Part shown: piece after piece, positions 6,052-51,853 of the stretch
Layout: each line of letters starts with the position of its first letter
How positions within the stretch are numbered: position 1 is the first letter of the stretch
NCBI RefSeq assembly: GCF_988243305.1
Contig: NZ_OZ547136.1
DNA: 64,000 nt
Reading direction: 5' to 3' (one strand)
The notes under the pieces: model-generated
Told to the model about the DNA's origin: nothing
Seen by the model: the letters and a program-made list of their open reading frames with translations, nothing else
The model's database searches: none
Made by a program: the position numbers and the translations under genes

Positions 6052-6155
6052 GCCTGATGCGCTACGCTTATCAGGCCTACGTGGTTTATGCAATATATTG
6101 AATTTGCATGATTTTGTAGACCAATAAGACGTTCACGTCGCATCCGGCATGGACA
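6052..6155. repeat. REP (repetitive extragenic palindromic) elements
   Basis: gcctgatgcgctacgcttatcaggcctac and gacgttcacgtcgcatccggcatgg resemble the E. coli REP consensus. Confidence 0.7.
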
Positions 6156-6493
6156 AAGCGCATATACAACCGATAACCAAAGTTGTAATTCCAGAAGTGA
6201 AATACGCCTGATCATGAGCGGGATAGAGAACAGTATCTCCCCAGAAAACTCAGCGTAATAATACAAGCAGCCAGCGCAACCACCGTCGGCCATATCAAGA
6301 ACGGTACAATAATAAAGCCGAGAAATACCACACCTAGCAGCAAAACACCGTGAATTTGTTCATCGCGCTAATTCCTTTCCCTCGAGGGTTATTTCATTGT
6401 GGGATACATCGGCACATAACCCATATTTTCCATCAAACTTTACCCTACCGATGGCTAAAAACGGGCTAATCCGATTCTGCACTGACTCACACA

Positions 6494-7645
6494 TCACTGG
6501 TATTCCACCCGCAAAACAGCCAGGGCATTATAACGACCCGCAGCAGGGCGTCGCCCTGTGGTACTTACAGGGAGAGACAGAAAAGTCACATCTGCCGTCT
6601 GAGCTGACTCAGCCCGGTTTTCAACTAACTTAAATGGCACACCAACATGCGCAGCAAGAGCGTTCAAGTCTACGGATTCCTGTTGGCTATCCATAATCAT
6701 AATGCCAACGTCGGGGTTATCCTCCGCCTGAATAATGCTTTGCCGACCATTAACATCTCTCGTTGATGAAATATTGCCATCAAAAACCAGCGTCATTACG
6801 GCATCAATATCTTTGTTCGTACAGTTTATCGGAATAGTGGTTGCCACTGGAGAAACGCCCGTGGGCTTCACTCCAGCACCAGCCCGACTTAATTCGCTGG
6901 CCCAGACATCCGGCATATTAACGGTAAAACTAGTTCCCTCATTAATTGTGCAACCTTGTGGAACTTCAATATTTAAGTTGCCAATATAAGCATTAAATAC
7001 TGGAATTGGTCCGTGCTCTGTTGGAAACTGGCTGACATACAAAGAAACCAGCAATACGTTATTTATTGATATATCGGATATTATTTTTTTATCAAGTCTG
7101 ATTTTTATATAACCTTCTGTTCCTGAGGCCCAACTTGATGGTTTACTTCTGTCTGCTGGATAATTGGTGCTATAGTTGTCAAAAGGTACTGCCTTATCTG
7201 TCATTGTGCCATTTTTATTATAGAGCTTTACATGTGTCGAGACAGATATTTCATGAGTCAAAGGAATAAATATATCGCTCCCCTGATGATCACCAGACGC
7301 TCCTGACGGATCAATCCCAGAAACACCAGAAAAATAAACCTCATAATCATCCAGAGAATTACAATAAGCCTTATAATGCCCTATTTTCCAGTCCTGCGAG
7401 GGTAATACTGTCCCAGGCGAATTATTATTAACATCTGAGACAATTACCGTACCAAAATTATAAGAAAATGTCGCAGGAGTAGTATTATTACCTGGTGCAC
7501 CAGGATAACAAAAGGCGCGATCCCGTCCCATATCTTCAGCATATACTATGTTATAGCAGCTACTGACTAAAAGAACAAACAATATACAAATTGCTTTTAT
7601 ATTTCCCCAAAAATAAGTAAGCATCATGCTTCTCCAGTTATCCAT
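6494..7645 (-). CDS. fimbrial tip adhesin-like subunit
   Basis: 383-aa ORF, last gene of the fimbrial operon; N-terminal signal peptide; C-terminus ends VEYQ like FimH-type pilins. Confidence 0.7.
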   Translation of the reverse strand: MDNWRSMMLTYFWGNIKAICILFVLLVSSCYNIVYAEDMGRDRAFCYPGAPGNNTTPATFSYNFGTVIVSDVNNNSPGTVLPSQDWKIGHYKAYCNSLDDYEVYFSGVSGIDPSGASGDHQGSDIFIPLTHEISVSTHVKLYNKNGTMTDKAVPFDNYSTNYPADRSKPSSWASGTEGYIKIRLDKKIISDISINNVLLVSLYVSQFPTEHGPIPVFNAYIGNLNIEVPQGCTINEGTSFTVNMPDVWASELSRAGAGVKPTGVSPVATTIPINCTNKDIDAVMTLVFDGNISSTRDVNGRQSIIQAEDNPDVGIMIMDSQQESVDLNALAAHVGVPFKLVENRAESAQTADVTFLSLPVSTTGRRPAAGRYNALAVLRVEYQ

Positions 7646-8441
7646 GTATCGCTACTGCACCCATAATAGCATTATTTTGTAAAACATTTAATTTTACGCT
7701 CCATACGGGTAAGGCATTATTGTAAAGATCTAGTGTTTGCCAGTTAATCTCACAATATCCTTGCCGCTGACACCAATCCTGTTGGCGATGACTAAATGGT
7801 GCAACCATGCCACCATTTATGCTTTTACCATCAATAGATAAATTATAGAGTGTCACATACCAGGGCGTAGGGTTAAAAACGGTGACAGCTTCATTGTTTC
7901 GCGACCAGCGTAACTGTTGATAAGCGTCAAGTGGATTACCTGATAACGTCTCTGGGCGGTAAAATATTTTCATCCTATTACGTACAGCCACCTGGAGTTG
8001 ATTTTCATTCTTAAGCTGTGAGTTTTGTTCCTGAGCAGGTAACGCTGCAATATTCAGTATAAATAAACTCTCACGATCTATAGGTAACTGCCCCCCCACG
8101 CGATTGATTCTTATTTTGGTATTTTTATCTTGTTTAAGTACCAATAATGGTGGTGTGGCAATAAACGCCTTATCTGGAAGTAAAGGCTGGGATTCCAGTG
8201 TCCCTTTTAACTGACGTCCATCATCAGGTGTCACGGAAATTTTAACCAGCATATCTTTACTGGCAGTATTTTTAAGCTCGACCGAAATTGATGACTGCTT
8301 TTCTGGGTAAACAAAACGAGTACCGCCAACAACAACTCCTGCCTGCGCATTTGTGCAACATATTAAAATGCATATCAGCACGTTAATCATAAGTGACGAT
8401 AAAGGAAACTGATGCATTCGCATCTCCTGGTTGTACATCAT
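7638..8441 (-). CDS. periplasmic fimbrial chaperone (PapD-like), second chaperone of operon
   Basis: 267-aa ORF with a signal peptide and chaperone-like motifs. Start is uncertain; the first ATGs overlap the upstream gene. Confidence 0.75.
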   Translation of the reverse strand: MMYNQEMRMHQFPLSSLMINVLICILICCTNAQAGVVVGGTRFVYPEKQSSISVELKNTASKDMLVKISVTPDDGRQLKGTLESQPLLPDKAFIATPPLLVLKQDKNTKIRINRVGGQLPIDRESLFILNIAALPAQEQNSQLKNENQLQVAVRNRMKIFYRPETLSGNPLDAYQQLRWSRNNEAVTVFNPTPWYVTLYNLSIDGKSINGGMVAPFSHRQQDWCQRQGYCEINWQTLDLYNNALPVWSVKLNVLQNNAIMGAVAIHG

Positions 8442-8907
8442 TTTTTATAGCTTTATAAGCAGCAAAGAAATGCAATGTATTATCTACCAATGGTGTAAGG
8501 GCATAACTTGTACTCTTTATACCATTACTAATACTTTGTCTGTTGTTATCAAAAATAGCCAGTGCTAACCCATCGACTGAGCCCTCTTCCAGTTTATATA
8601 GGGCTGCGTCTTCACTAACTGGTATTCCATCAAACGTGACATTGGCATGACTGACATCACTGCCACAACGGGTTAACTTTACAGAGAAACCAATTTTTTC
8701 AGTAACACTCCCTGAATTTCTCACCATATAGCTGGGAACATCAGGCATGTTAACTGTGAAATTTTTAGATTCATCGGCAACAATACAAGTCTTTGCCGTT
8801 ATGATTCCTTCTATACGTACAACACCTGTATGTGTTGTATCATCAGCAATGGATGACATAGATATCACAGAGAATAATAGGGCAATTAAATTCCAATATC
8901 GTGTCAT
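8383..8907 (-). CDS. fimbrial minor subunit
   Basis: 174-aa ORF, signal peptide, paired Cys, C-terminal FIVTYD beta-strand typical of chaperone-usher pilins. Confidence 0.75.
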   Translation of the reverse strand: MTRYWNLIALLFSVISMSSIADDTTHTGVVRIEGIITAKTCIVADESKNFTVNMPDVPSYMVRNSGSVTEKIGFSVKLTRCGSDVSHANVTFDGIPVSEDAALYKLEEGSVDGLALAIFDNNRQSISNGIKSTSYALTPLVDNTLHFFAAYKAIKNDVQPGDANASVSFIVTYD

Positions 8908-8914
8908 ATTAACC

Positions 8915-9487
8915 TCACTGATAGTCTATATCAAAGTACAATAGTGCGTTCGCCTGTCCCGCATGTACGTTTTGCTGAGTTGACTTATAGCGGAGTTTAA
9001 AGGTTAAACTGGCATCGCCATTATTATTTAAAATTAACTCTTTGAATCCTGACTCACTATTAATTGCTATAATTTTATCATTACTGTCTAAAATTTCGAT
9101 GCCCACTCCAGTTGCACTATCCGCGCTGGAAGTAAGGCGTAATAAAGTGGTATTTATAGCATCAGCATCCCCGGTAAACTGCACATTAGCACTTACTCCT
9201 GAACTATAAACAGTACTGGTTGTTGTAGGACATCCTTCCAGATTGATCGTAAATGTATGGCTGCCAGAAACATCCCCTACATTCAAAAAATCATTGACGT
9301 CATAAGTTCCCATGTTTACTGGCTGGTCTTTACTTCCAGTTGTAATATCACACGTTTTTGCTAATAATTGTCCTGTAAATGTGACCACTACAGTATCGTT
9401 AGCCAGTGCGTTATATGAAATCACCATCATGAACAATGATCTAAACATTAATAGAATAAATTTTTGTAATATATTCATTAGCGGCAC
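8915..9487 (-). CDS. fimbrial minor subunit
   Basis: 190-aa ORF, signal peptide, C-terminal FDIDYQ pilin donor-strand-like end. Confidence 0.75.
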   Translation of the reverse strand: MPLMNILQKFILLMFRSLFMMVISYNALANDTVVVTFTGQLLAKTCDITTGSKDQPVNMGTYDVNDFLNVGDVSGSHTFTINLEGCPTTTSTVYSSGVSANVQFTGDADAINTTLLRLTSSADSATGVGIEILDSNDKIIAINSESGFKELILNNNGDASLTFKLRYKSTQQNVHAGQANALLYFDIDYQ

Positions 9488-11436
9488 TCCAGATTTGCAT
9501 AGCTAATGGCATTATCCAGTTCGCTTTTCGGTAATTGATAACTTGCCCGACATTGCTGATAAGCACTTTCTCCCCACTGTATATTTATTATGCCTTGTAA
9601 AGGCAAACCGGAGAGATAAACCTGCCCACTGTCACCCACTATTCCTGTAATCTGAGTTGTCCCCTCAGTGGGTACACTGACCGTCGCACCAAATGGAACT
9701 GGTTTATTACGATAGTGAACATTAAATAAACCTCGAATACCGACATGTGCATTAAACTCAGCACGAACTAAAGCACCTTTGCTGGGTATCACTTCCATAG
9801 TAGTAGCATCTAATTCTGTATGCATACTCATAGACATAGGGTCTAAAGAGATATTATTACGCCGATATTCCGTGGCATAAGGTACGACAGCATAGCCACG
9901 CCAGTCTGTTTTAACCCCCGTTCCGCGTTCCACATTTACATTGTTTGCCCCAGGTGCTTTTATCAGTATATTTGTTTCACCTAACGGCTGACTTAGCGTG
10001 AGACCATTTTCGTGAACAACCAGGGCCCCACTTAAACCATAGTTAAATTGCTGGTTACCATTATTATCGTAGCTGTATCCAGAATTTAGTGAACCATATG
10101 TACCACGGTAATTTAAACCTACCGCGCCATTTTCGCCATTATTCTGGTTAGCAAAATTTTGTTGAATATTATAGTTGAGATTATGTTGTTCCAGCAGCGA
10201 TCCAGATACTCCAGCATACTGATTCACATGACCGCTATTATCCTGACTATAACCATAAGTTGCTGTCATAGAATTTGTCGCAGTACGCCCATCGACAGCT
10301 GGTGATAACCAATTGCTGATCGGCAATGAGACATTTACGGATAAGATTCTGTCCGCATCTGAACCTGGTGACTTGCTATAATTATAAGCAATATTTAAAT
10401 AAATCCCATGTACACTCGTATTATAGCCGACCTGATACAAGGTATCTTTATTATTCGTATTCCAGTAAGTTTGTTGACTTGCCGCCAAATACATAGAGCC
10501 ATATTCGCCCAATGGTTGCGATATATTTGCCTGAAACTTTCCTCTTTTGCTATAACGTAAATTATAAAAATCATTCCAGTTATAAACATAGTCTTTTTCA
10601 TTAAGGGTATCTGGATCGATAACCGTACCCGACATTTGTTTGTATGTGGTATCACTCAACGAATAAAATCCCTCCGTCGAATAGCGATAACCAATAATCT
10701 GAAAAGCCGTACCTGTCTGCACTAACGATTTTGAATATAGGAAACGGTACGATTGCCCTTGATGTTTACTGCCATCGGCAAGCGTGCTATTGGCTTGCGT
10801 TAAATCAAATGACGTCGCACCAAACATACCAAGGTTGAACCCAAGCCCGAGTGCTATTGCCCGATAATTATTTGAGTATTGCATCCCTCCGTAGGCGGTA
10901 ATATCCCAGGGTAACCCCCAAATCAAATCTCCTTGAAAGACATTCGGACTGTTTTGATTATAGCTATTGCTACGATATTTACCGGCAGTTGCCGAATATT
11001 TAATATGCCCTTCGCGTTGAAGAATGGGAACAGCGGCGTAAGGAATAGTATAGATAGTTTCGGAATTATCAGACTCTTTGATCGTAACTTCCAAATCCCC
11101 AGCGGAAGACGTAGGGTTCAGATCGTTGATTTCAAAGGGTCCCGGTGGAGTATATGTCTGATAAATAACATAGCCATTTTGTTTGATCGTTACCTGAGCA
11201 TTGCTTTTAGCAATACCGCGCACAGTGGGGGCAAAACCACTTTGGCTATCGGGTAGCATGTTTTCATCGGATTCAAGTTTAGCACCACGAATACTCACAC
11301 TGTCGAAAACATCCGATGAAGACCAGGTACTGATGAATCCCCTAATGATTTTGGTAAAAATCATTAAGTTAAGGTAGATACACATCTTGTCATATGATCA
11401 AATGGTTTCGCCAAAAATCAATAATCAGACAACAAG

Positions 11437-32456: not shown

Positions 32457-33494
32457 TTACTTCGCGAGAGTCACTGTGGAGGGAGAGGCTTGCTCAAATC
32501 CTCGTTCAAGGATTTCCAGATTGGTAAGAACTTCAGATTCCTTGACGTAATTTGGCGCACCGTTGGTGATGGTTTGATACAACGCATCATAAACGCGCCC
32601 GTAATCGCCCATCTCCGGCTTCATCTCTTCTCTGACCGTCACACCCTCGTCATTGACATACTCCAGCACACCGACCGAATCATCCGCCGCGAATCCCGGT
32701 TCGCCCGGCATAATATTAGCCTTGAGGCTGGTTTCCTGCTGGTCGATACCGTATTTAATAAACGAACCTTTCTTACCGTGAACGATAAATTTCGGATAAT
32801 CGATTTTCACCAGATGGCTGGTTTTGACGATGGCTTTCAGGTCGCCATAAAACAGTTGCGCTTCAAAGGTGTCGTCAGGATTGGCTTTATTGCGCAGGCT
32901 GCGGATGTCATAAGCGACGTGATCCGGGCGACCGAACAGAGAAATAATCTGGTCCATCGTATGCACACCAAGGCCATAGAACGCGCCATCCTGCGGCAAC
33001 CCAGGTTTGGTTTCTGCCACCGGGCGGTAATAGTCAAAATGGCTTTCCACTTCAACAATCTCTCCCAGCTTACCGCTTTCAATCGCTCTTTTCGCCGTCA
33101 GGAAGCAGGAATCAAAGCGACGATTCTGATACGGCGTGACGGTCAGCCCTTTGCTTTTCGCCAGCGCAAACAGCTCTTTCGCCTGCGCAATTGTCGGAGT
33201 AAACGGTTTTTCGACCAGCACATTTTTCCCGGCTTCCAGCGCGCGTTTCGCGTATTCGAAATGACTATCCGCGTGGGTGCAGACGACAACCAGCTTAACA
33301 TCGGGATCGTTTAGCACTTCGTCGAGATCGCTGGTGAAATGGATATGAGAGTAAATGGGAGCCTGTTCTTCCGGCTTCGCATGGCGGCGAAAAATATGCG
33401 CGACATGCCAGCTATCCTTGCGGTTAAGTACATACGGCAGATGGTAACGGGTGGTGCTTTTGCCGAAGCCAATAAAGGCGCAGTTGATGACCAT
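32457..33494 (-). CDS. yhhX: Gfo/Idh/MocA-family oxidoreductase YhhX
   Basis: 345-aa ORF with an N-terminal Rossmann motif. Confidence 0.85.
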   Translation of the reverse strand: MVINCAFIGFGKSTTRYHLPYVLNRKDSWHVAHIFRRHAKPEEQAPIYSHIHFTSDLDEVLNDPDVKLVVVCTHADSHFEYAKRALEAGKNVLVEKPFTPTIAQAKELFALAKSKGLTVTPYQNRRFDSCFLTAKRAIESGKLGEIVEVESHFDYYRPVAETKPGLPQDGAFYGLGVHTMDQIISLFGRPDHVAYDIRSLRNKANPDDTFEAQLFYGDLKAIVKTSHLVKIDYPKFIVHGKKGSFIKYGIDQQETSLKANIMPGEPGFAADDSVGVLEYVNDEGVTVREEMKPEMGDYGRVYDALYQTITNGAPNYVKESEVLTNLEILERGFEQASPSTVTLAK

Positions 33495-33614
33495 GATTTC
33501 GTCCTTTTTAAGGTGGTTATTTACACCTTAGCGCAAAGCGGACGTGGTTCCTACTGGAGTGCGCATAACGAACACAAGCACTTCCCGTGGATAAATTGAA
33601 AACGAAAGATCAAA

Positions 33615-33706
33615 AAAAAAGCCAGCACCCGGCTGGCTAAGTAATACTGGAAGCAATGTGAGCAATGTCGTGCTTTCAGGTTCTCCGCGAGGGTCTTCCT
33701 GATCGC
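33615..33706 (-). ncRNA. ryhB: RyhB small RNA (Fur-repressed iron-sparing sRNA)
   Basis: Minus strand reads gcgatcaggaagaccctcgcggagaacctgaaagcacgacattgctcacattgcttccagtattacttagccagccgggtgctggctttt: terminator hairpin plus U-run, at the expected yhhX-yhhY position. Confidence 0.9.
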
Positions 33707-33735
33707 AAGACAATAATAATCATTCTCATTCGCAC
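33707..33735 (-). promoter_or_regulatory. Fur box / promoter of ryhB
   Basis: Minus strand immediately upstream of the RyhB 5' end reads aatgagaatgattattattgtc, a Fur-box-like AT hexamer array. Confidence 0.7.
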
Positions 33736-33828
33736 TTGTCCAACACTTTTTGCAAAAAAAATGCATTTGACTCGCATTTGAAAGTCAATGATGTTGAAAG
33801 GGACATTTACCCCAAAGAGGACAAAGGA

Positions 33829-34317
33829 ATGAGTGAGATAGTGATACGCCATGCTGAAACGCGCGATTACGAGGCCATCAGGCAGATTCACGCCCAGCCG
33901 GAGGTGTATTGCAACACGCTACAGGTGCCTCATCCTTCCGATCATATGTGGCAGGAGCGACTCGCCGATCGTCCCGGCATCAAGCAACTCGTCGCCTGTA
34001 TTGATGGAGACGTCGTGGGCCATCTCACCATTGACGTGCAACAGCGCCCACGCCGCAGTCATGTTGCAGATTTTGGTATTTGTGTCGACTCCCGTTGGAA
34101 GAATCGCGGCGTCGCCAGCGCCCTGATGCGAGAGATGATTGAAATGTGCGACAACTGGTTGCGGGTAGATCGTATTGAGCTAACGGTGTTCATCGATAAC
34201 GCGCCAGCAATTAAGGTCTATAAAAAATTTGGATTTGAGATTGAAGGGACTGGCAAGAAGTACGCATTACGTAATGGTGAATATGTCGATGCGTATTATA
34301 TGGCGCGGGTGAAGTAA
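33829..34317 (+). CDS. yhhY: GNAT-family N-acetyltransferase YhhY
   Basis: ORF 33736..34317; start trimmed to MSEIVIRHAETRDYEAIRQIH giving 162 aa. Confidence 0.85.
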   Translation: MSEIVIRHAETRDYEAIRQIHAQPEVYCNTLQVPHPSDHMWQERLADRPGIKQLVACIDGDVVGHLTIDVQQRPRRSHVADFGICVDSRWKNRGVASALMREMIEMCDNWLRVDRIELTVFIDNAPAIKVYKKFGFEIEGTGKKYALRNGEYVDAYYMARVK

Positions 34318-34551: not shown

Positions 34552-35730
34552 ATGAGTAATATTGTTTACCTGACAGTAACGGGAGAACAACAAGGAAACA
34601 TCTCCGCAGGTTGTGGGACTACTGAATCTATAGGTAATCGCTGGCAGAGTGGGCATGAGGATGAAATATTTACATTCTCACTCGCAAATAGAATTACTAA
34701 TACGGGACTTGGTTCACAGTTACAGGGTATGACATTTTGTAAATTAATTGATAAAAGCACTCCATTACTTATTAATTCCATTAACAATAATGAGCAATTA
34801 TTTATGGAATTTGACTTTTATAGAATCAATAGATTTGGTAGATGGGAAAAGTATTATTATATACAACTAAGAGGCGCTTTTTTATCGGCTATTCATCATC
34901 AGATCATTCAAAATCAACTGGATACAGAAACAATAACTGTTAGTTATGAATTTATCCTCTGTCAACATCTTATCGCAAATACCGAGTTCAGCTATTTGGC
35001 ACTCCCTGAAAATTATAACCGTTTGTTTTTACCAAATTCAAAAAACCAAACAAATAATCGTTTCAAAACTTTAAACAGCAAAGCTATTGGCAGGCTACTT
35101 GCTGCTGGTGGCGTATACAATGGGAACATTGAAGGATTCAGAGATACTGCGGAAAAACTGGGTGGAGATGCAATAAAAGGCTATGATCAAATACTAAATG
35201 AAAAAACAGCGGGCATAGCGATAGCAACAGCATCTATTCTTTTAACAAAGCGTTCTAATGTTGATACATATACAGAAATAAATAGTTACTTAGGCAAACT
35301 TAGAGGTCAACAAAAACTTCTTGATGGTATAGACATAATAGAAATAATATACATTAAGAGACCTTCAAAAGACTTAGCTAACTTACGAAAGGAGTTTAAT
35401 AAAACTGTAAGAAAAAATTTTCTTATCAAACTTGCAAAAACCTCCGAAGCATCTGGAAGATTCAACGCCGAAGACCTTTTAAGAATGAGAAAGGGCAATG
35501 TTCCTCTAAATTATAATGTTCACCATAAACTATCTCTAGATGATGGTGGTACTAATGATTTCGAAAATTTAGTATTAATCGAAAACGAACCATATCATAA
35601 AGTTTTTACTAACATGCAATCACGAATAGCTAAGGGAGTATTAGTAGGTGAAAGCAAAATCACTCCCTGGGCCATTCCATCTGGCTCAATTTATCCTCCC
35701 ATGAAAAATATTATGGAACCCACAAAATGA
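34552..35730 (+). CDS. yhhZ: Hcp-domain protein with C-terminal HNH/AHH-like nuclease toxin extension
   Basis: 392-aa ORF; N-terminal ~160 aa Hcp-like, C-terminus has the VHHKLSLDDGGTNDFENLVLIENEPYH motif; AT-rich gene. Confidence 0.8.
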   Translation: MSNIVYLTVTGEQQGNISAGCGTTESIGNRWQSGHEDEIFTFSLANRITNTGLGSQLQGMTFCKLIDKSTPLLINSINNNEQLFMEFDFYRINRFGRWEKYYYIQLRGAFLSAIHHQIIQNQLDTETITVSYEFILCQHLIANTEFSYLALPENYNRLFLPNSKNQTNNRFKTLNSKAIGRLLAAGGVYNGNIEGFRDTAEKLGGDAIKGYDQILNEKTAGIAIATASILLTKRSNVDTYTEINSYLGKLRGQQKLLDGIDIIEIIYIKRPSKDLANLRKEFNKTVRKNFLIKLAKTSEASGRFNAEDLLRMRKGNVPLNYNVHHKLSLDDGGTNDFENLVLIENEPYHKVFTNMQSRIAKGVLVGESKITPWAIPSGSIYPPMKNIMEPTK

Positions 35731-36221
35731 TGACTAAGACCCAAATAAATAAATTAAAAAAAATGATGAATGATTTAGACTATCCATTTGAAGCACCGCT
35801 TAAGGAATCATTTATTGAAAGTATAATCCAAATAGAATTTAATTCTAATTCAACTAATTGCCTGGAGAAGTTATGTAATGAAGTTAGTATTCTTTTTAAG
35901 AATCAACCTGATTATCTTACTTTTTTAAGAGCAATGGATGGATTCGAAGCTAATGGATTACGATTATTTAGCCTCTCGATTCCAGAACCTTCAGTTAAAA
36001 ACCTTTTTGCCGTAAATGAATTTTATAGAAATAATGATGATTTCATAAACCCTGATCTACAAGAACGGTTAGTGATCGGTGATGATAGCATTTCAATATT
36101 TACTTATGACATTAAAAATAACTTTTTTGAAATTAGAGATAATATTGGCACCGAAAATATATTCAGTTCGTTTAGTGATTTCTCTTCATTCTTAAACGAA
36201 ATCATGGACAGTTGTTCATAA
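35727..36221 (+). CDS. yrhA: putative cognate immunity protein of the YhhZ toxin (intact here)
   Basis: 164-aa acidic ORF whose start overlaps the yhhZ stop by 4 bp (ATGA), consistent with translational coupling. Confidence 0.65.
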   Translation: MMTKTQINKLKKMMNDLDYPFEAPLKESFIESIIQIEFNSNSTNCLEKLCNEVSILFKNQPDYLTFLRAMDGFEANGLRLFSLSIPEPSVKNLFAVNEFYRNNDDFINPDLQERLVIGDDSISIFTYDIKNNFFEIRDNIGTENIFSSFSDFSSFLNEIMDSCS

Positions 36222-50672: not shown

Positions 50673-51056
50673 ATGAAGCTGACCATCATTCGATTAGAAA
50701 ACTTTAGCGACCAGGACCGGATTGACCTGCAAAAGATCTGGCCGGAGTATTCCCCTTCCTCTTTACAGGTTGACGATAACCACCGTATCTACGCCGCGCG
50801 TTTTAACGAGCGCCTCCTAGCGGCCGTGCGGGTAACCTTAAGCGGCACCGAGGGGGCACTGGATTCTCTACGTGTGCGGGAAGTCACCCGCCGTCGCGGT
50901 GTGGGGCAATATCTGCTGGAAGAGGTTTTGCGTACCAATCCTGGCGTTTTAGGCTGGTGGATGGCGGATGCTGGCGTGGAAGATCGCGGTGTGATGACGG
51001 CGTTTATGCAGGCGCTGGGGTTTACGGCACAACAGGGCGGCTGGGAGAAGCGTTAA
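50673..51056 (+). CDS. panM: PanD maturation factor PanM (PanZ), GNAT fold
   Basis: 127-aa ORF MKLTIIRLENFSDQDRIDLQKIWPEY. Confidence 0.85.
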   Translation: MKLTIIRLENFSDQDRIDLQKIWPEYSPSSLQVDDNHRIYAARFNERLLAAVRVTLSGTEGALDSLRVREVTRRRGVGQYLLEEVLRTNPGVLGWWMADAGVEDRGVMTAFMQALGFTAQQGGWEKR

Positions 51057-51580
51057 TCGCTCTGTGTAAAAAGCAGTTCAATGGATTTGGTTGGGAAAAA
51101 TAACGCATTTTCGTTTTCTCCGACCAGCGGGATAAAGCCCAGCGACTGATAAAACGTATGGGCTTTTTCATTCAGCGCCTCGACAAAAAGACCGTGAATA
51201 CCTACCGCTAAAGAGGCTGACCAGACGACTTTCATGGCATGAGCAACCAGTGTTGCTCCCCATCCCTGTCCCTGTAATGAACGATCAATTGCCAGACGCC
51301 CAAGAGTGACGCTGGGAATATTTTTGTAGGGAATTTTTTTCTGTTTCGATTTCGAGGGCAATGCGGCTCGTTCAAAACAACTGCCGGATAATGTGTAATA
51401 TCCCAGGACCTGACGTTCTGGAGTGTTGCGACAAAGGATATACGCTCGCAGAATTTTATTGCGATGTTGACGAATCAGATGTGCCGTCAGAAAGAGATTT
51501 AACGCTTCCTCGCCGCAGTCGAATCGCTGTAGATCATAATCTGCATCATCGGTCAGAATCTCTATCGTCAGATCATCCAT
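51053..51580 (-). CDS. GNAT-family acetyltransferase toxin (TacT/AtaT/ItaT-like)
   Basis: 175-aa ORF with an acetyl-CoA-binding-like QGQGWGATLV motif, immediately downstream of a small RHH-type ORF. Confidence 0.7.
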   Translation of the reverse strand: MDDLTIEILTDDADYDLQRFDCGEEALNLFLTAHLIRQHRNKILRAYILCRNTPERQVLGYYTLSGSCFERAALPSKSKQKKIPYKNIPSVTLGRLAIDRSLQGQGWGATLVAHAMKVVWSASLAVGIHGLFVEALNEKAHTFYQSLGFIPLVGENENALFFPTKSIELLFTQSD

Positions 51581-51586
51581 AAATGA

Positions 51587-51853
51587 TTACATTCCCTGAA
51601 GACGTTTTGTCGCACGTTTTAGCTTTTCACCTGGCGACGGTGGATTACTCAGCGCATCCATCACCCGCGTCCAGGATTCCTCATTGAGGATCACCCGCCG
51701 ATGCTGTTCAATCACTTCCGCAGCCCGCTGCGAAGCGCTGTTCAACATAAATTGGCTGACGGACTGATTAGATATCGCTGCCGCTTCCTCAATCATACTT
51801 TTGTCATCGTCAGTTAAACGCAGATCGATACGCTGCTTTTTAACAGCAGACAT
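51587..51853 (-). CDS. DUF1778-like RHH antitoxin (TacA/AtaR-like)
   Basis: 88-aa ORF MSAVKKQRIDLRLTDDDKSMIEEAAAISNQSVSQFML, ribbon-helix-helix-like N-terminus; 6 bp upstream of the GNAT gene. Confidence 0.7.
   Translation of the reverse strand: MSAVKKQRIDLRLTDDDKSMIEEAAAISNQSVSQFMLNSASQRAAEVIEQHRRVILNEESWTRVMDALSNPPSPGEKLKRATKRLQGM

What the first reader, a model, noticed from the sequence alone, without database searches (positions are those of the whole stretch)
33615..33735. RyhB sRNA with Fur box, readable directly from the sequence
The 90-nt RyhB sequence including its terminator is present on the minus strand between yhhX and yhhY, preceded by a Fur-box-like array. It is not represented in the ORF track, which instead gives spurious ORFs across it.
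Basis: partly seen in the sequence, partly recalled or inferred. Interest (0 to 1): 0.3.

Follow-up and report, generated by a model that had tools for sequence, protein, structure and literature searches.

The report
Textbook RyhB iron-sparing small RNA
This is the ordinary, already well-studied E. coli RyhB small RNA gene with its Fur-repressed promoter, sitting at its usual place between yhhX and yhhY and identical in sequence to the laboratory strain K-12.

Summary
The observation and the interpretation both hold. The Rfam RyhB model (RF00057) hits window 33613-33677 (-) at 83.1 bits against a gathering score of 55 (E 3.6e-14). The 90-nt RyhB sequence is an exact match at 33617-33706 (-). 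All 95 nt annotated as ryhB (b4451) in E. coli K-12 MG1655 are identical to 33612-33706.

Directly upstream lie a sigma-70-like promoter (TGGACA-18-TATTAT) and the best Fur-box match in the whole 64 kb (33709-33727, 16/19). A second site shifted by 6 bp overlaps it. Downstream are a 7-bp GC-rich hairpin and a run of 9 T. The flanking genes are yhhX (-) and yhhY (+), as claimed.

The element is present in 5424 of 5426 complete E. coli genomes. In 117 related loci from Enterobacterales, Aeromonas and Vibrionaceae, the identical 27-nt core is always preceded by a Fur box. It is usually followed by a terminator whose stem changes in a compensatory way.

The four ORFs of 38-71 aa that cross it have no Pfam match, and their frames are not conserved.

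Nothing here departs from the known element, so it is already known and of low interest. The only local peculiarities are a T instead of C at position -1 and one extra T upstream.

The parts
33612..33706 (-). ryhB small RNA gene. The transcript starts at G 33706. The 90-nt form ends at 33617; the K-12 annotation (95 nt) runs through the T tract to 33612.
   Evidence: Rfam RF00057 at 83.1 bits. Exact match to the 90-nt RyhB. 95/95 identity to K-12 b4451.
33647..33673 (-). Conserved 27-nt core GCACGACATTGCTCACATTGCTTCCAG (RyhB nt 34-60). It contains the target-pairing seed and an imperfect tandem 9-mer, ACATTGCTC/ACATTGCTT.
   Evidence: The exact 27-mer was found in at least 120 stretches of DNA from Enterobacterales, Aeromonas, Photobacterium, Aliivibrio, Zobellella and Salinivibrio. 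RyhB nt 38-46 GACAUUGCU is the exact complement of K-12 sodB -4..+5 across the start codon.
33612..33638 (-). Rho-independent terminator, which also forms the Hfq-binding 3' module: stem AGCCAGC/GCTGGCT, loop CGGGT, then 9 T.
   Evidence: Terminator scan. The hairpin is paired in the Rfam alignment and in the MFE fold. Compensatory stem variants occur in other species: CCAGC/GCTGG, CCCGC/GCGGG, CCGGC/GCCGG, GGCCAG/CTGGCC.
33709..33733 (.). Fur-box array: the main 19-mer is at 33709-33727 (16/19 read on the + strand, 15/19 on the - strand). It is overlapped by a 14/19 site at 33715-33733, shifted by one hexamer. The array covers the -10 hexamer and ends 3 nt before the transcription start.
   Evidence: Only match in the 64-kb window. 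Highest 19-mer score in the window on both strands. Chen et al. 2007 (PMC2189734) report a 25.2-bit Fur cluster of 4 sites in 31 bp centred at -15 of ryhB, with gel-shift confirmation.
33713..33742 (-). Sigma-70-type promoter of ryhB: -35 TGGACA (33742-33737), 18-nt spacer, -10 TATTAT (33718-33713). The start site is 7 nt downstream.
   Evidence: This is the only promoter-like site in 33400-34000, matching 10 of 12 positions. Its position fits the annotated 5' end of K-12 ryhB.
32457..33494 (-). yhhX, a GFO/IDH/MocA-family oxidoreductase. It runs in the same direction as ryhB, and its ATG is 117 nt after the terminator T tract.
   Evidence: ORF. Pfam PF01408 and PF02894. RefSeq annotation of 100%-identical DNA.
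33829..34317 (+). yhhY, a GNAT N-acetyltransferase, divergent from ryhB. Its ATG is 122 nt upstream of the ryhB start.
   Evidence: ORF in-frame ATG. Pfam PF00583. RefSeq and K-12 annotation.

Best explanation
The region is the chromosomal ryhB gene of an Escherichia coli strain. Shown here from sequence: there is a sigma-70-type promoter whose -10 hexamer is buried in an overlapping array of Fur boxes. A 90-95-nt transcript region follows that is identical to K-12 RyhB. It has a 5' stem-loop, a central conserved core carrying a 9-nt seed complementary to the sodB start-codon region, an AU-rich linker, and a GC-rich terminator hairpin with a long U tail. Inferred from established knowledge of RyhB (Masse and Gottesman 2002, cited from my own knowledge; PMC4666370 and PMC2189734, read here): when iron is sufficient, Fe2+-Fur occupies the box array and blocks RNA polymerase. 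When iron is scarce, Fur leaves and RyhB is made. Hfq binds its U tail and AU-rich linker. The core pairs with about 50 mRNAs for non-essential iron-using proteins (sodB, sdhCDAB, acnB and others). This blocks their translation and triggers coupled RNase E decay, which spares iron. A few targets (shiA, cirA) are activated.
For: Rfam RyhB hit above gathering. 95/95 identity to K-12 ryhB b4451 and the same yhhX/yhhY context. Exact match to the 90-nt sequence. Unique Fur-box match overlapping the -10 hexamer. Terminator. Present in 5424/5426 complete E. coli genomes, at >=99% identity in 5277. In 117 loci of other species that carry the same 27-nt core, a Fur box of 13-18/19 lies 50-121 nt upstream of the core in every one; the background for >=14/19 is 11 per 128,000 positions in the window. 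106 of the 117 have a hairpin plus T-run within 60 nt after the core, with compensatory stem variants. The seed is complementary to the sodB start region. Literature: gel-shift-confirmed Fur cluster at -15 of ryhB; iron-sparing role, about 50 targets, Hfq and RNase E mechanism.
Against: Nothing in the sequence argues against it. The caveats are minor. The whole-RNA MFE is not lower than shuffles (z = -0.67), which is usual for a short sRNA with a deliberately single-stranded core. Expression, Fur repression and Hfq binding in this particular strain were not and cannot be measured here. Position -1 is T here against C in K-12, with unknown and probably negligible effect.
Confidence: 0.98

Rival explanations
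1. The Fur-controlled promoter serves yhhX as well as RyhB. Part of the transcription reads through the RyhB terminator, so ryhB-yhhX behaves as an operon like sgrS-setA, RyhB doubles as the 5' leader of an iron-regulated yhhX mRNA, and termination efficiency sets the sRNA/mRNA ratio. This adds to the main explanation rather than replacing it.
For: yhhX runs in the same direction, 117 nt after the T tract, and no other sigma-70-like promoter was found between the terminator and the yhhX ATG. Morita et al. 2015 (PMC4509938) showed frequent readthrough at the ryhB terminator on plasmids. [quoted passage not shown] Co-directional yhhX follows RyhB in 26 loci across Enterobacteriaceae. In three of them its start lies only 101-112 nt from the core start, directly after the terminator.
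Against: The terminator looks strong (7-bp stem, 5 GC pairs, 9 T), and termination increases under iron stress. In several species 0.5-1.5 kb separates RyhB from yhhX, and outside Enterobacteriaceae yhhX is not adjacent. The promoter scan is crude and could miss a yhhX promoter.
Confidence: 0.25
2. The region is protein-coding: one of the 38-71-aa ORFs that cross it (33528-33713 -, 33551-33766 -, 33676-33891 -, 33665-33781 +) is a real small-protein gene, and the RNA similarity is secondary.
For: The ORFs exist mechanically.
Against: None has a Pfam match at E<=0.01. All three minus-strand ORFs start upstream of the transcription start at 33706, so the RyhB transcript does not contain their start codons, and the fourth is antisense. 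The linker between core and terminator varies among species in lengths that are not multiples of three (mostly 8, 9 or 10 nt), which breaks any frame running through the RNA. Conservation peaks in the 27-nt core and the hairpin pairing, not in codons.
Confidence: 0.01
3. The copy is a decayed or silent relic of ryhB, with promoter or RNA mutations.
For: Two small promoter-region differences from K-12: T for C at -1 (33707) and 8 T instead of 7 T in the run about 55-62 nt upstream of the start (about 33761-33768).
Against: The transcribed region is 95/95 identical, and the -35, -10, Fur box and terminator are unchanged. The exact 134-nt promoter-plus-RNA allele also occurs in another complete genome, and the 501-nt region is 100% identical in strain Z1323HEC0462.
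Confidence: 0.01

Closest known systems
Escherichia coli K-12 RyhB (ryhB, b4451; Rfam RF00057)
   Same: The transcribed sequence is identical (95/95). The promoter hexamers, Fur-box array, terminator, strand and yhhX/yhhY neighbours are the same.
   Different: There are four differences, all outside the RNA: T instead of C at -1, one extra T in an upstream T run, and two changes downstream of the terminator.
RyhB paralogues and orthologues of other Gammaproteobacteria (RyhB1/RyhB2 of Yersinia, Serratia, Photorhabdus and Pantoea; the longer Vibrionaceae RyhB; Aeromonas RyhB)
   Same: They share the identical 27-nt core, an upstream Fur box, and a terminator hairpin with compensatory variation.
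   Different: Those species often carry two copies, or a much longer 3' part with no terminator within 60 nt of the core in Photobacterium, Aliivibrio and Salinivibrio. The window has one copy of the short enterobacterial form.
sgrS-setA (an sRNA followed by a co-transcribed gene)
   Same: An Hfq-dependent sRNA with a leaky Rho-independent terminator is followed by a co-directional protein gene.
   Different: Co-transcription is shown for sgrS-setA. For ryhB-yhhX it is only proposed.

Membership tests
RyhB sRNA (Rfam RF00057) | Covariance-model score at or above the curated gathering score | tested here: met
   83.1 bits against 55, E 3.6e-14, model positions 1-67 of 67, at 33613-33677 (-).
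RyhB sRNA (Rfam RF00057) | Sequence identity with the experimentally defined E. coli K-12 ryhB transcript | tested here: met
   95/95 identical to b4451. The 90-nt sequence matches exactly at 33617-33706.
RyhB sRNA (Rfam RF00057) | Promoter overlapped by a Fur box (Fur-repressed transcription) | tested here: met
   The sequence feature is met: a 16/19 Fur box at 33709-33727 overlaps the -10 hexamer TATTAT at 33713-33718, with a second site offset by 6 bp. An upstream Fur box is conserved in 117/117 related loci. Fur binding to the near-identical K-12 site (it differs only at -1, just outside the 19-mer) was shown by gel shift in PMC2189734. Actual repression in this strain was not measured.
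RyhB sRNA (Rfam RF00057) | Rho-independent terminator with a long U tail, forming the Hfq-binding 3' module | tested here: met
   A 7-bp stem with 5 GC pairs, followed by 9 T. Compensatory stem changes are seen across species. Hfq binding itself cannot be tested here.
RyhB sRNA (Rfam RF00057) | Conserved core complementary to the translation-initiation region of iron-protein mRNAs such as sodB | tested here: met
   RyhB nt 38-46 GACAUUGCU is the exact Watson-Crick complement of K-12 sodB -4..+5. The core is invariant across orders.
RyhB sRNA (Rfam RF00057) | Canonical enterobacterial locus between yhhX and yhhY | tested here: met
   yhhX at 32457-33494 (-) and yhhY at 33829-34317 (+). A yhhY and/or yhhX neighbour was found in 51 of 120 loci from other species.
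RyhB sRNA (Rfam RF00057) | Non-coding | tested here: met
   There is no ATG inside the transcript, and the overlapping ORFs start upstream of +1 or are antisense. They have no Pfam match. Frame-breaking linker length variation occurs among species.
RyhB sRNA (Rfam RF00057) | Induction by iron starvation or fur deletion; Hfq- and RNase E-dependent repression of targets | not testable with these tools
   This needs a Northern blot, RNA-seq or reporter assays in the strain. It is established for the identical K-12 RNA in the literature.

The most novel reading that the evidence does not exclude
The most novel reading not excluded is that the Fur-repressed ryhB promoter also drives yhhX by regulated terminator readthrough. 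RyhB would then be both a trans-acting sRNA and the 5' leader of an iron-responsive yhhX oxidoreductase mRNA. This is proposed in the literature but never demonstrated. It is consistent with the conserved co-directional adjacency in Enterobacteriaceae, where yhhX sometimes starts immediately after the terminator. A related unexplored point is that the divergent yhhY-ryhB pair keeps an almost fixed spacing from Escherichia to Yersinia, Serratia and Pantoea, which hints at a shared regulatory region.
Probability: 0.2. Interest if true: 0.3.

Novelty: already known. Interest (0 to 1): 0.05.

Why it matters
For discovery it matters little. [quoted passage not shown] The practical point is about annotation. 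ORF-based gene tracks miss it and show spurious ORFs instead. The RefSeq annotation of the E. coli genomes listed also shows no feature at this place, so an RNA-family scan is needed to label it. It also serves as a positive control, showing that the first-stage reader can recognise a known sRNA and its operator from raw sequence.

Tried and rejected
- **Whole-RNA folding:** the z-score of -0.67 is uninformative for a 95-nt sRNA with an open core. I relied instead on the Rfam structure and on cross-species compensatory changes in the terminator.
- **RNAduplex of full RyhB against the sodB leader:** this gave an unrealistically long duplex (-34.8 kcal/mol; 19 of 500 shuffles did as well) because intramolecular structure is ignored. 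I kept only the exact 9-nt seed complementarity.
- **Coding potential of the four crossing ORFs:** rejected.
- **A second RyhB copy in the window, as in Salmonella or Yersinia:** none was found; there is one Rfam hit and one exact-core match.
- **Reading Masse and Gottesman 2002 (PMC123697):** the paper is not held, so statements from it are marked as my own knowledge.
- **Frequency of the -1 T allele across E. coli:** not quantified. The spread table shows only that most genomes differ from the window by one base in 134.

Full report
**Observation**

Reading the minus strand of 33400-33950 shows the sequence GCGATCAGGAAGACCCTCGCGGAGAACCTGAAAGCACGACATTGCTCACATTGCTTCCAGTATTACTTAGCCAGCCGGGTGCTGGCTTTTTTTTT.

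- A scan of the whole window against Rfam 15 at gathering thresholds gives four hits. One is RyhB (RF00057) at 33613-33677 (-): 83.1 bits against a gathering score of 55, E 3.6e-14, covering the full model.
- The 90-nt RyhB sequence, which I supplied from memory of the published sequence, occurs exactly once, at 33617-33706 (-).
- The ncRNA annotated as ryhB (b4451, 95 nt, 3580922-3581016, minus strand) in E. coli K-12 MG1655 aligns to window 33612-33706 without a single difference.

**Anatomy of the promoter and terminator**

- **Promoter.** The only sigma-70-like promoter in 33400-34000 is TGGACA (33742-33737), an 18-nt spacer, then TATTAT (33718-33713) on the minus strand. This places the start 7 nt downstream, at the annotated 5' G (33706).
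- **Fur box.** The 19-bp consensus GATAATGATAATCATTATC, allowing 3 mismatches, has one match in all 64 kb, at 33709-33727. By chance 0.04 matches are expected, and 3 of 100 shuffles gave any.
- **Fur array.** That site is the top-scoring 19-mer of the window on both strands. It is overlapped by a 14/19 site shifted by exactly one hexamer (33715-33733). The description as an "array" is therefore fair.
- **Consequence of its position.** The array covers the -10 hexamer and ends 3 nt before +1, which is the geometry expected of a repressor that excludes RNA polymerase.
- **Published support.** Chen et al. 2007 (PMC2189734) describe a cluster of four Fur sites in 31 bp at this place in K-12. The strongest scores 25.2 bits, it is centred at -15 of ryhB, and Fur binding was confirmed by gel shift. 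They note that the site had first been attributed to yhhX by Vassinova and Kozyrev.
- **Terminator.** It is AGCCAGC-CGGGT-GCTGGCT followed by nine T (33638-33612).

**Context**

- The downstream co-directional ORF 32457-33494 (-) is YhhX, a GFO/IDH/MocA oxidoreductase. The upstream divergent ORF 33829-34317 (+) is YhhY, a GNAT acetyltransferase.
- DNA that is 100% or 99.8% identical in RefSeq E. coli genomes carries these gene names.
- A blast of the window against K-12 3.54-3.62 Mb shows collinearity from rtcB to dcrB with a few insertions and deletions. The window is therefore an E. coli chromosome segment, and ryhB is at its canonical locus.

**Distribution within E. coli**

- The 134-nt promoter-plus-RNA segment is found in 5424 of 5426 complete E. 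coli genomes, always on the chromosome, at >=99% identity in 5277.
- No feature is annotated under the match in those RefSeq records, nor in the 100%-identical strain Z1323HEC0462.

**Related sequences elsewhere**

- **Core.** The 27-nt core GCACGACATTGCTCACATTGCTTCCAG was scanned against one genome per species. They come from Citrobacter, Enterobacter, Klebsiella, Yersinia, Serratia, Pantoea, Photorhabdus, Xenorhabdus, Dickeya, Pectobacterium, Hafnia, Aeromonas, Photobacterium, Aliivibrio, Salinivibrio, Zobellella and others, often with two copies per genome.
- **Fur box.** In all 117 copies with enough flank, the best Fur 19-mer in the 130 nt upstream scores 13-18 of 19. The window-wide background for >=14/19 is 11 in 128,000 positions.
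- **Terminator.** 106 of the 117 have a hairpin plus T-run within 60 nt after the core. The stems include compensatory variants: CCAGC/GCTGG, CCCGC/GCGGG, CCGGC/GCCGG and GGCCAG/CTGGCC. The 11 exceptions are Vibrionaceae, where I recall the RNA being much longer.
- **Linker.** The linker between core and hairpin varies by single nucleotides, mostly 8, 9 or 10 nt. That is incompatible with a conserved reading frame.

**Coding potential**

- Four mechanical ORFs cross the RNA, and none matches Pfam.
- The three on the RyhB strand begin upstream of the transcription start. The fourth is antisense.
- The transcript contains no ATG.

**Mechanism**

- Shown here is the architecture: a Fur array over the -10 hexamer, the conserved core, and the Hfq-type 3' module.
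- RyhB nt 38-46 (GACAUUGCU) is the perfect complement of the K-12 sodB mRNA from -4 to +5 around the start codon.
- Inferred from established work on the identical K-12 RNA: Fe2+-Fur represses transcription. Under iron limitation RyhB accumulates and is bound by Hfq. It pairs with about 50 mRNAs for non-essential iron proteins, blocking translation and provoking RNase E-dependent decay, and it activates shiA and cirA. This is the "iron-sparing" response (PMC4666370; Masse and Gottesman 2002, from my own knowledge because the paper is not held).

**Differences from the reference**

- Within the 270-nt intergenic alignment there are four differences from K-12, none inside the RNA: T for C at -1 (33707), 8 T instead of 7 T in the run about 55-62 nt upstream of the start, and two changes after the terminator.
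- Most E. coli genomes differ from the window by one base in 134. That base is probably the -1 position, which would make the window's allele the rarer one. I did not quantify this.

**Rivals**

- **Readthrough into yhhX (confidence about 0.25).** This is the only alternative with any weight, and it is additive to the main explanation: the Fur-controlled promoter may also feed yhhX by terminator readthrough.
  - For it: Morita et al. [quoted passage not shown] I found no other promoter-like site in the 117-nt gap. yhhX follows RyhB co-directionally throughout Enterobacteriaceae, and in three loci it starts directly after the terminator.
  - Against it: the terminator is strong and tightens under iron stress. 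The linkage is variable in distance and is lost outside the family.
- **Small-protein gene or dead copy (about 1% each).** Both readings are effectively excluded.

**Verdict**

This is the known RyhB gene, so its novelty is "already known" and its interest is low (0.05).

**Other things seen in the window**

These are unrelated to the finding and are listed separately: a fimbrial operon with an IS10/IS3-family insertion, a GNAT/TacA toxin-antitoxin pair, and a TPR membrane protein gene absent from K-12.

Noticed in passing
window 6163-16820: A chaperone-usher fimbrial operon (major subunit, two chaperones, usher, minor subunits) lies between glpD and glgP. K-12 has only about 440 bp there, containing yzgL. 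The operon is intact in several other E. coli genomes.
   Followed up: partly
window 11330-13971: A 2,642-bp insertion with a 9-bp target duplication interrupts the fimbrial usher gene. It consists of IS10 (Rfam RNA-OUT 11375-11444, transposase ORF 11437-12654 +) abutting an IS3-family element (Rfam ALIL frameshift pseudoknot 13352-13468; ORFs 12536-13426 and 13423-13749 on the minus strand). The fimbrial operon is therefore probably inactive in this strain.
   Followed up: partly
window 51053-51853 (-): A two-gene module between panZ and livJ is absent from K-12: an 88-aa TacA/DUF1778 antitoxin (PF08681, E 3e-25) followed by a 175-aa GNAT acetyltransferase. This is the layout of a TacAT/ItaRT-type tRNA-acetylating toxin-antitoxin pair.
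   Followed up: partly
window 44548-45294 (-): A 248-aa ORF with TPR repeats and a weak, sub-threshold match to the PLDc_N domain at its N-terminus lies between ugpB and livF. K-12 has only a 215-bp intergenic region there.
   Followed up: no
window 36108-36116: yrhA is uninterrupted here. K-12 carries IS1E at this point, and the 9 bases that align on both sides of it correspond to its target duplication.
   Followed up: no
window 33647-33670 (-); locus L125 about 380-400: The RyhB core contains an imperfect tandem 9-mer, ACATTGCTC/ACATTGCTT. One clinical E. coli (strain 23AR0151, NZ_CP195448.1) carries a third copy, a 9-nt slippage duplication inside the target-pairing region. This natural RyhB variant has unknown consequences.
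   Followed up: partly
window 33706-33829 and loci L005-L124: The divergent yhhY-ryhB pair is conserved well beyond Escherichia (Yersinia, Serratia, Pantoea, Rahnella, Hafnia). The spacing is nearly fixed, about 150-215 nt from the yhhY start codon to the RyhB core. yhhX downstream is confined to Enterobacteriaceae and lies at variable distance, 101-1491 nt from the core start.
   Followed up: partly
window 6073-6115 (-): An Rfam hit to ES036 (CssrF) sRNA scores 43.6 bits against a gathering score of 37.6. It sits just downstream of glpD, right at the edge of the region that differs from K-12.
   Followed up: no
window 34552-35730 (+): yhhZ, next to yhhY, is an Hcp (T6SS tube) domain fused to a C-terminal region with a weak, sub-threshold HNH match. 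RefSeq names it tssD in one strain and 'putative endonuclease YhhZ' in K-12. It appears to be an orphan Hcp-effector fusion.
   Followed up: no
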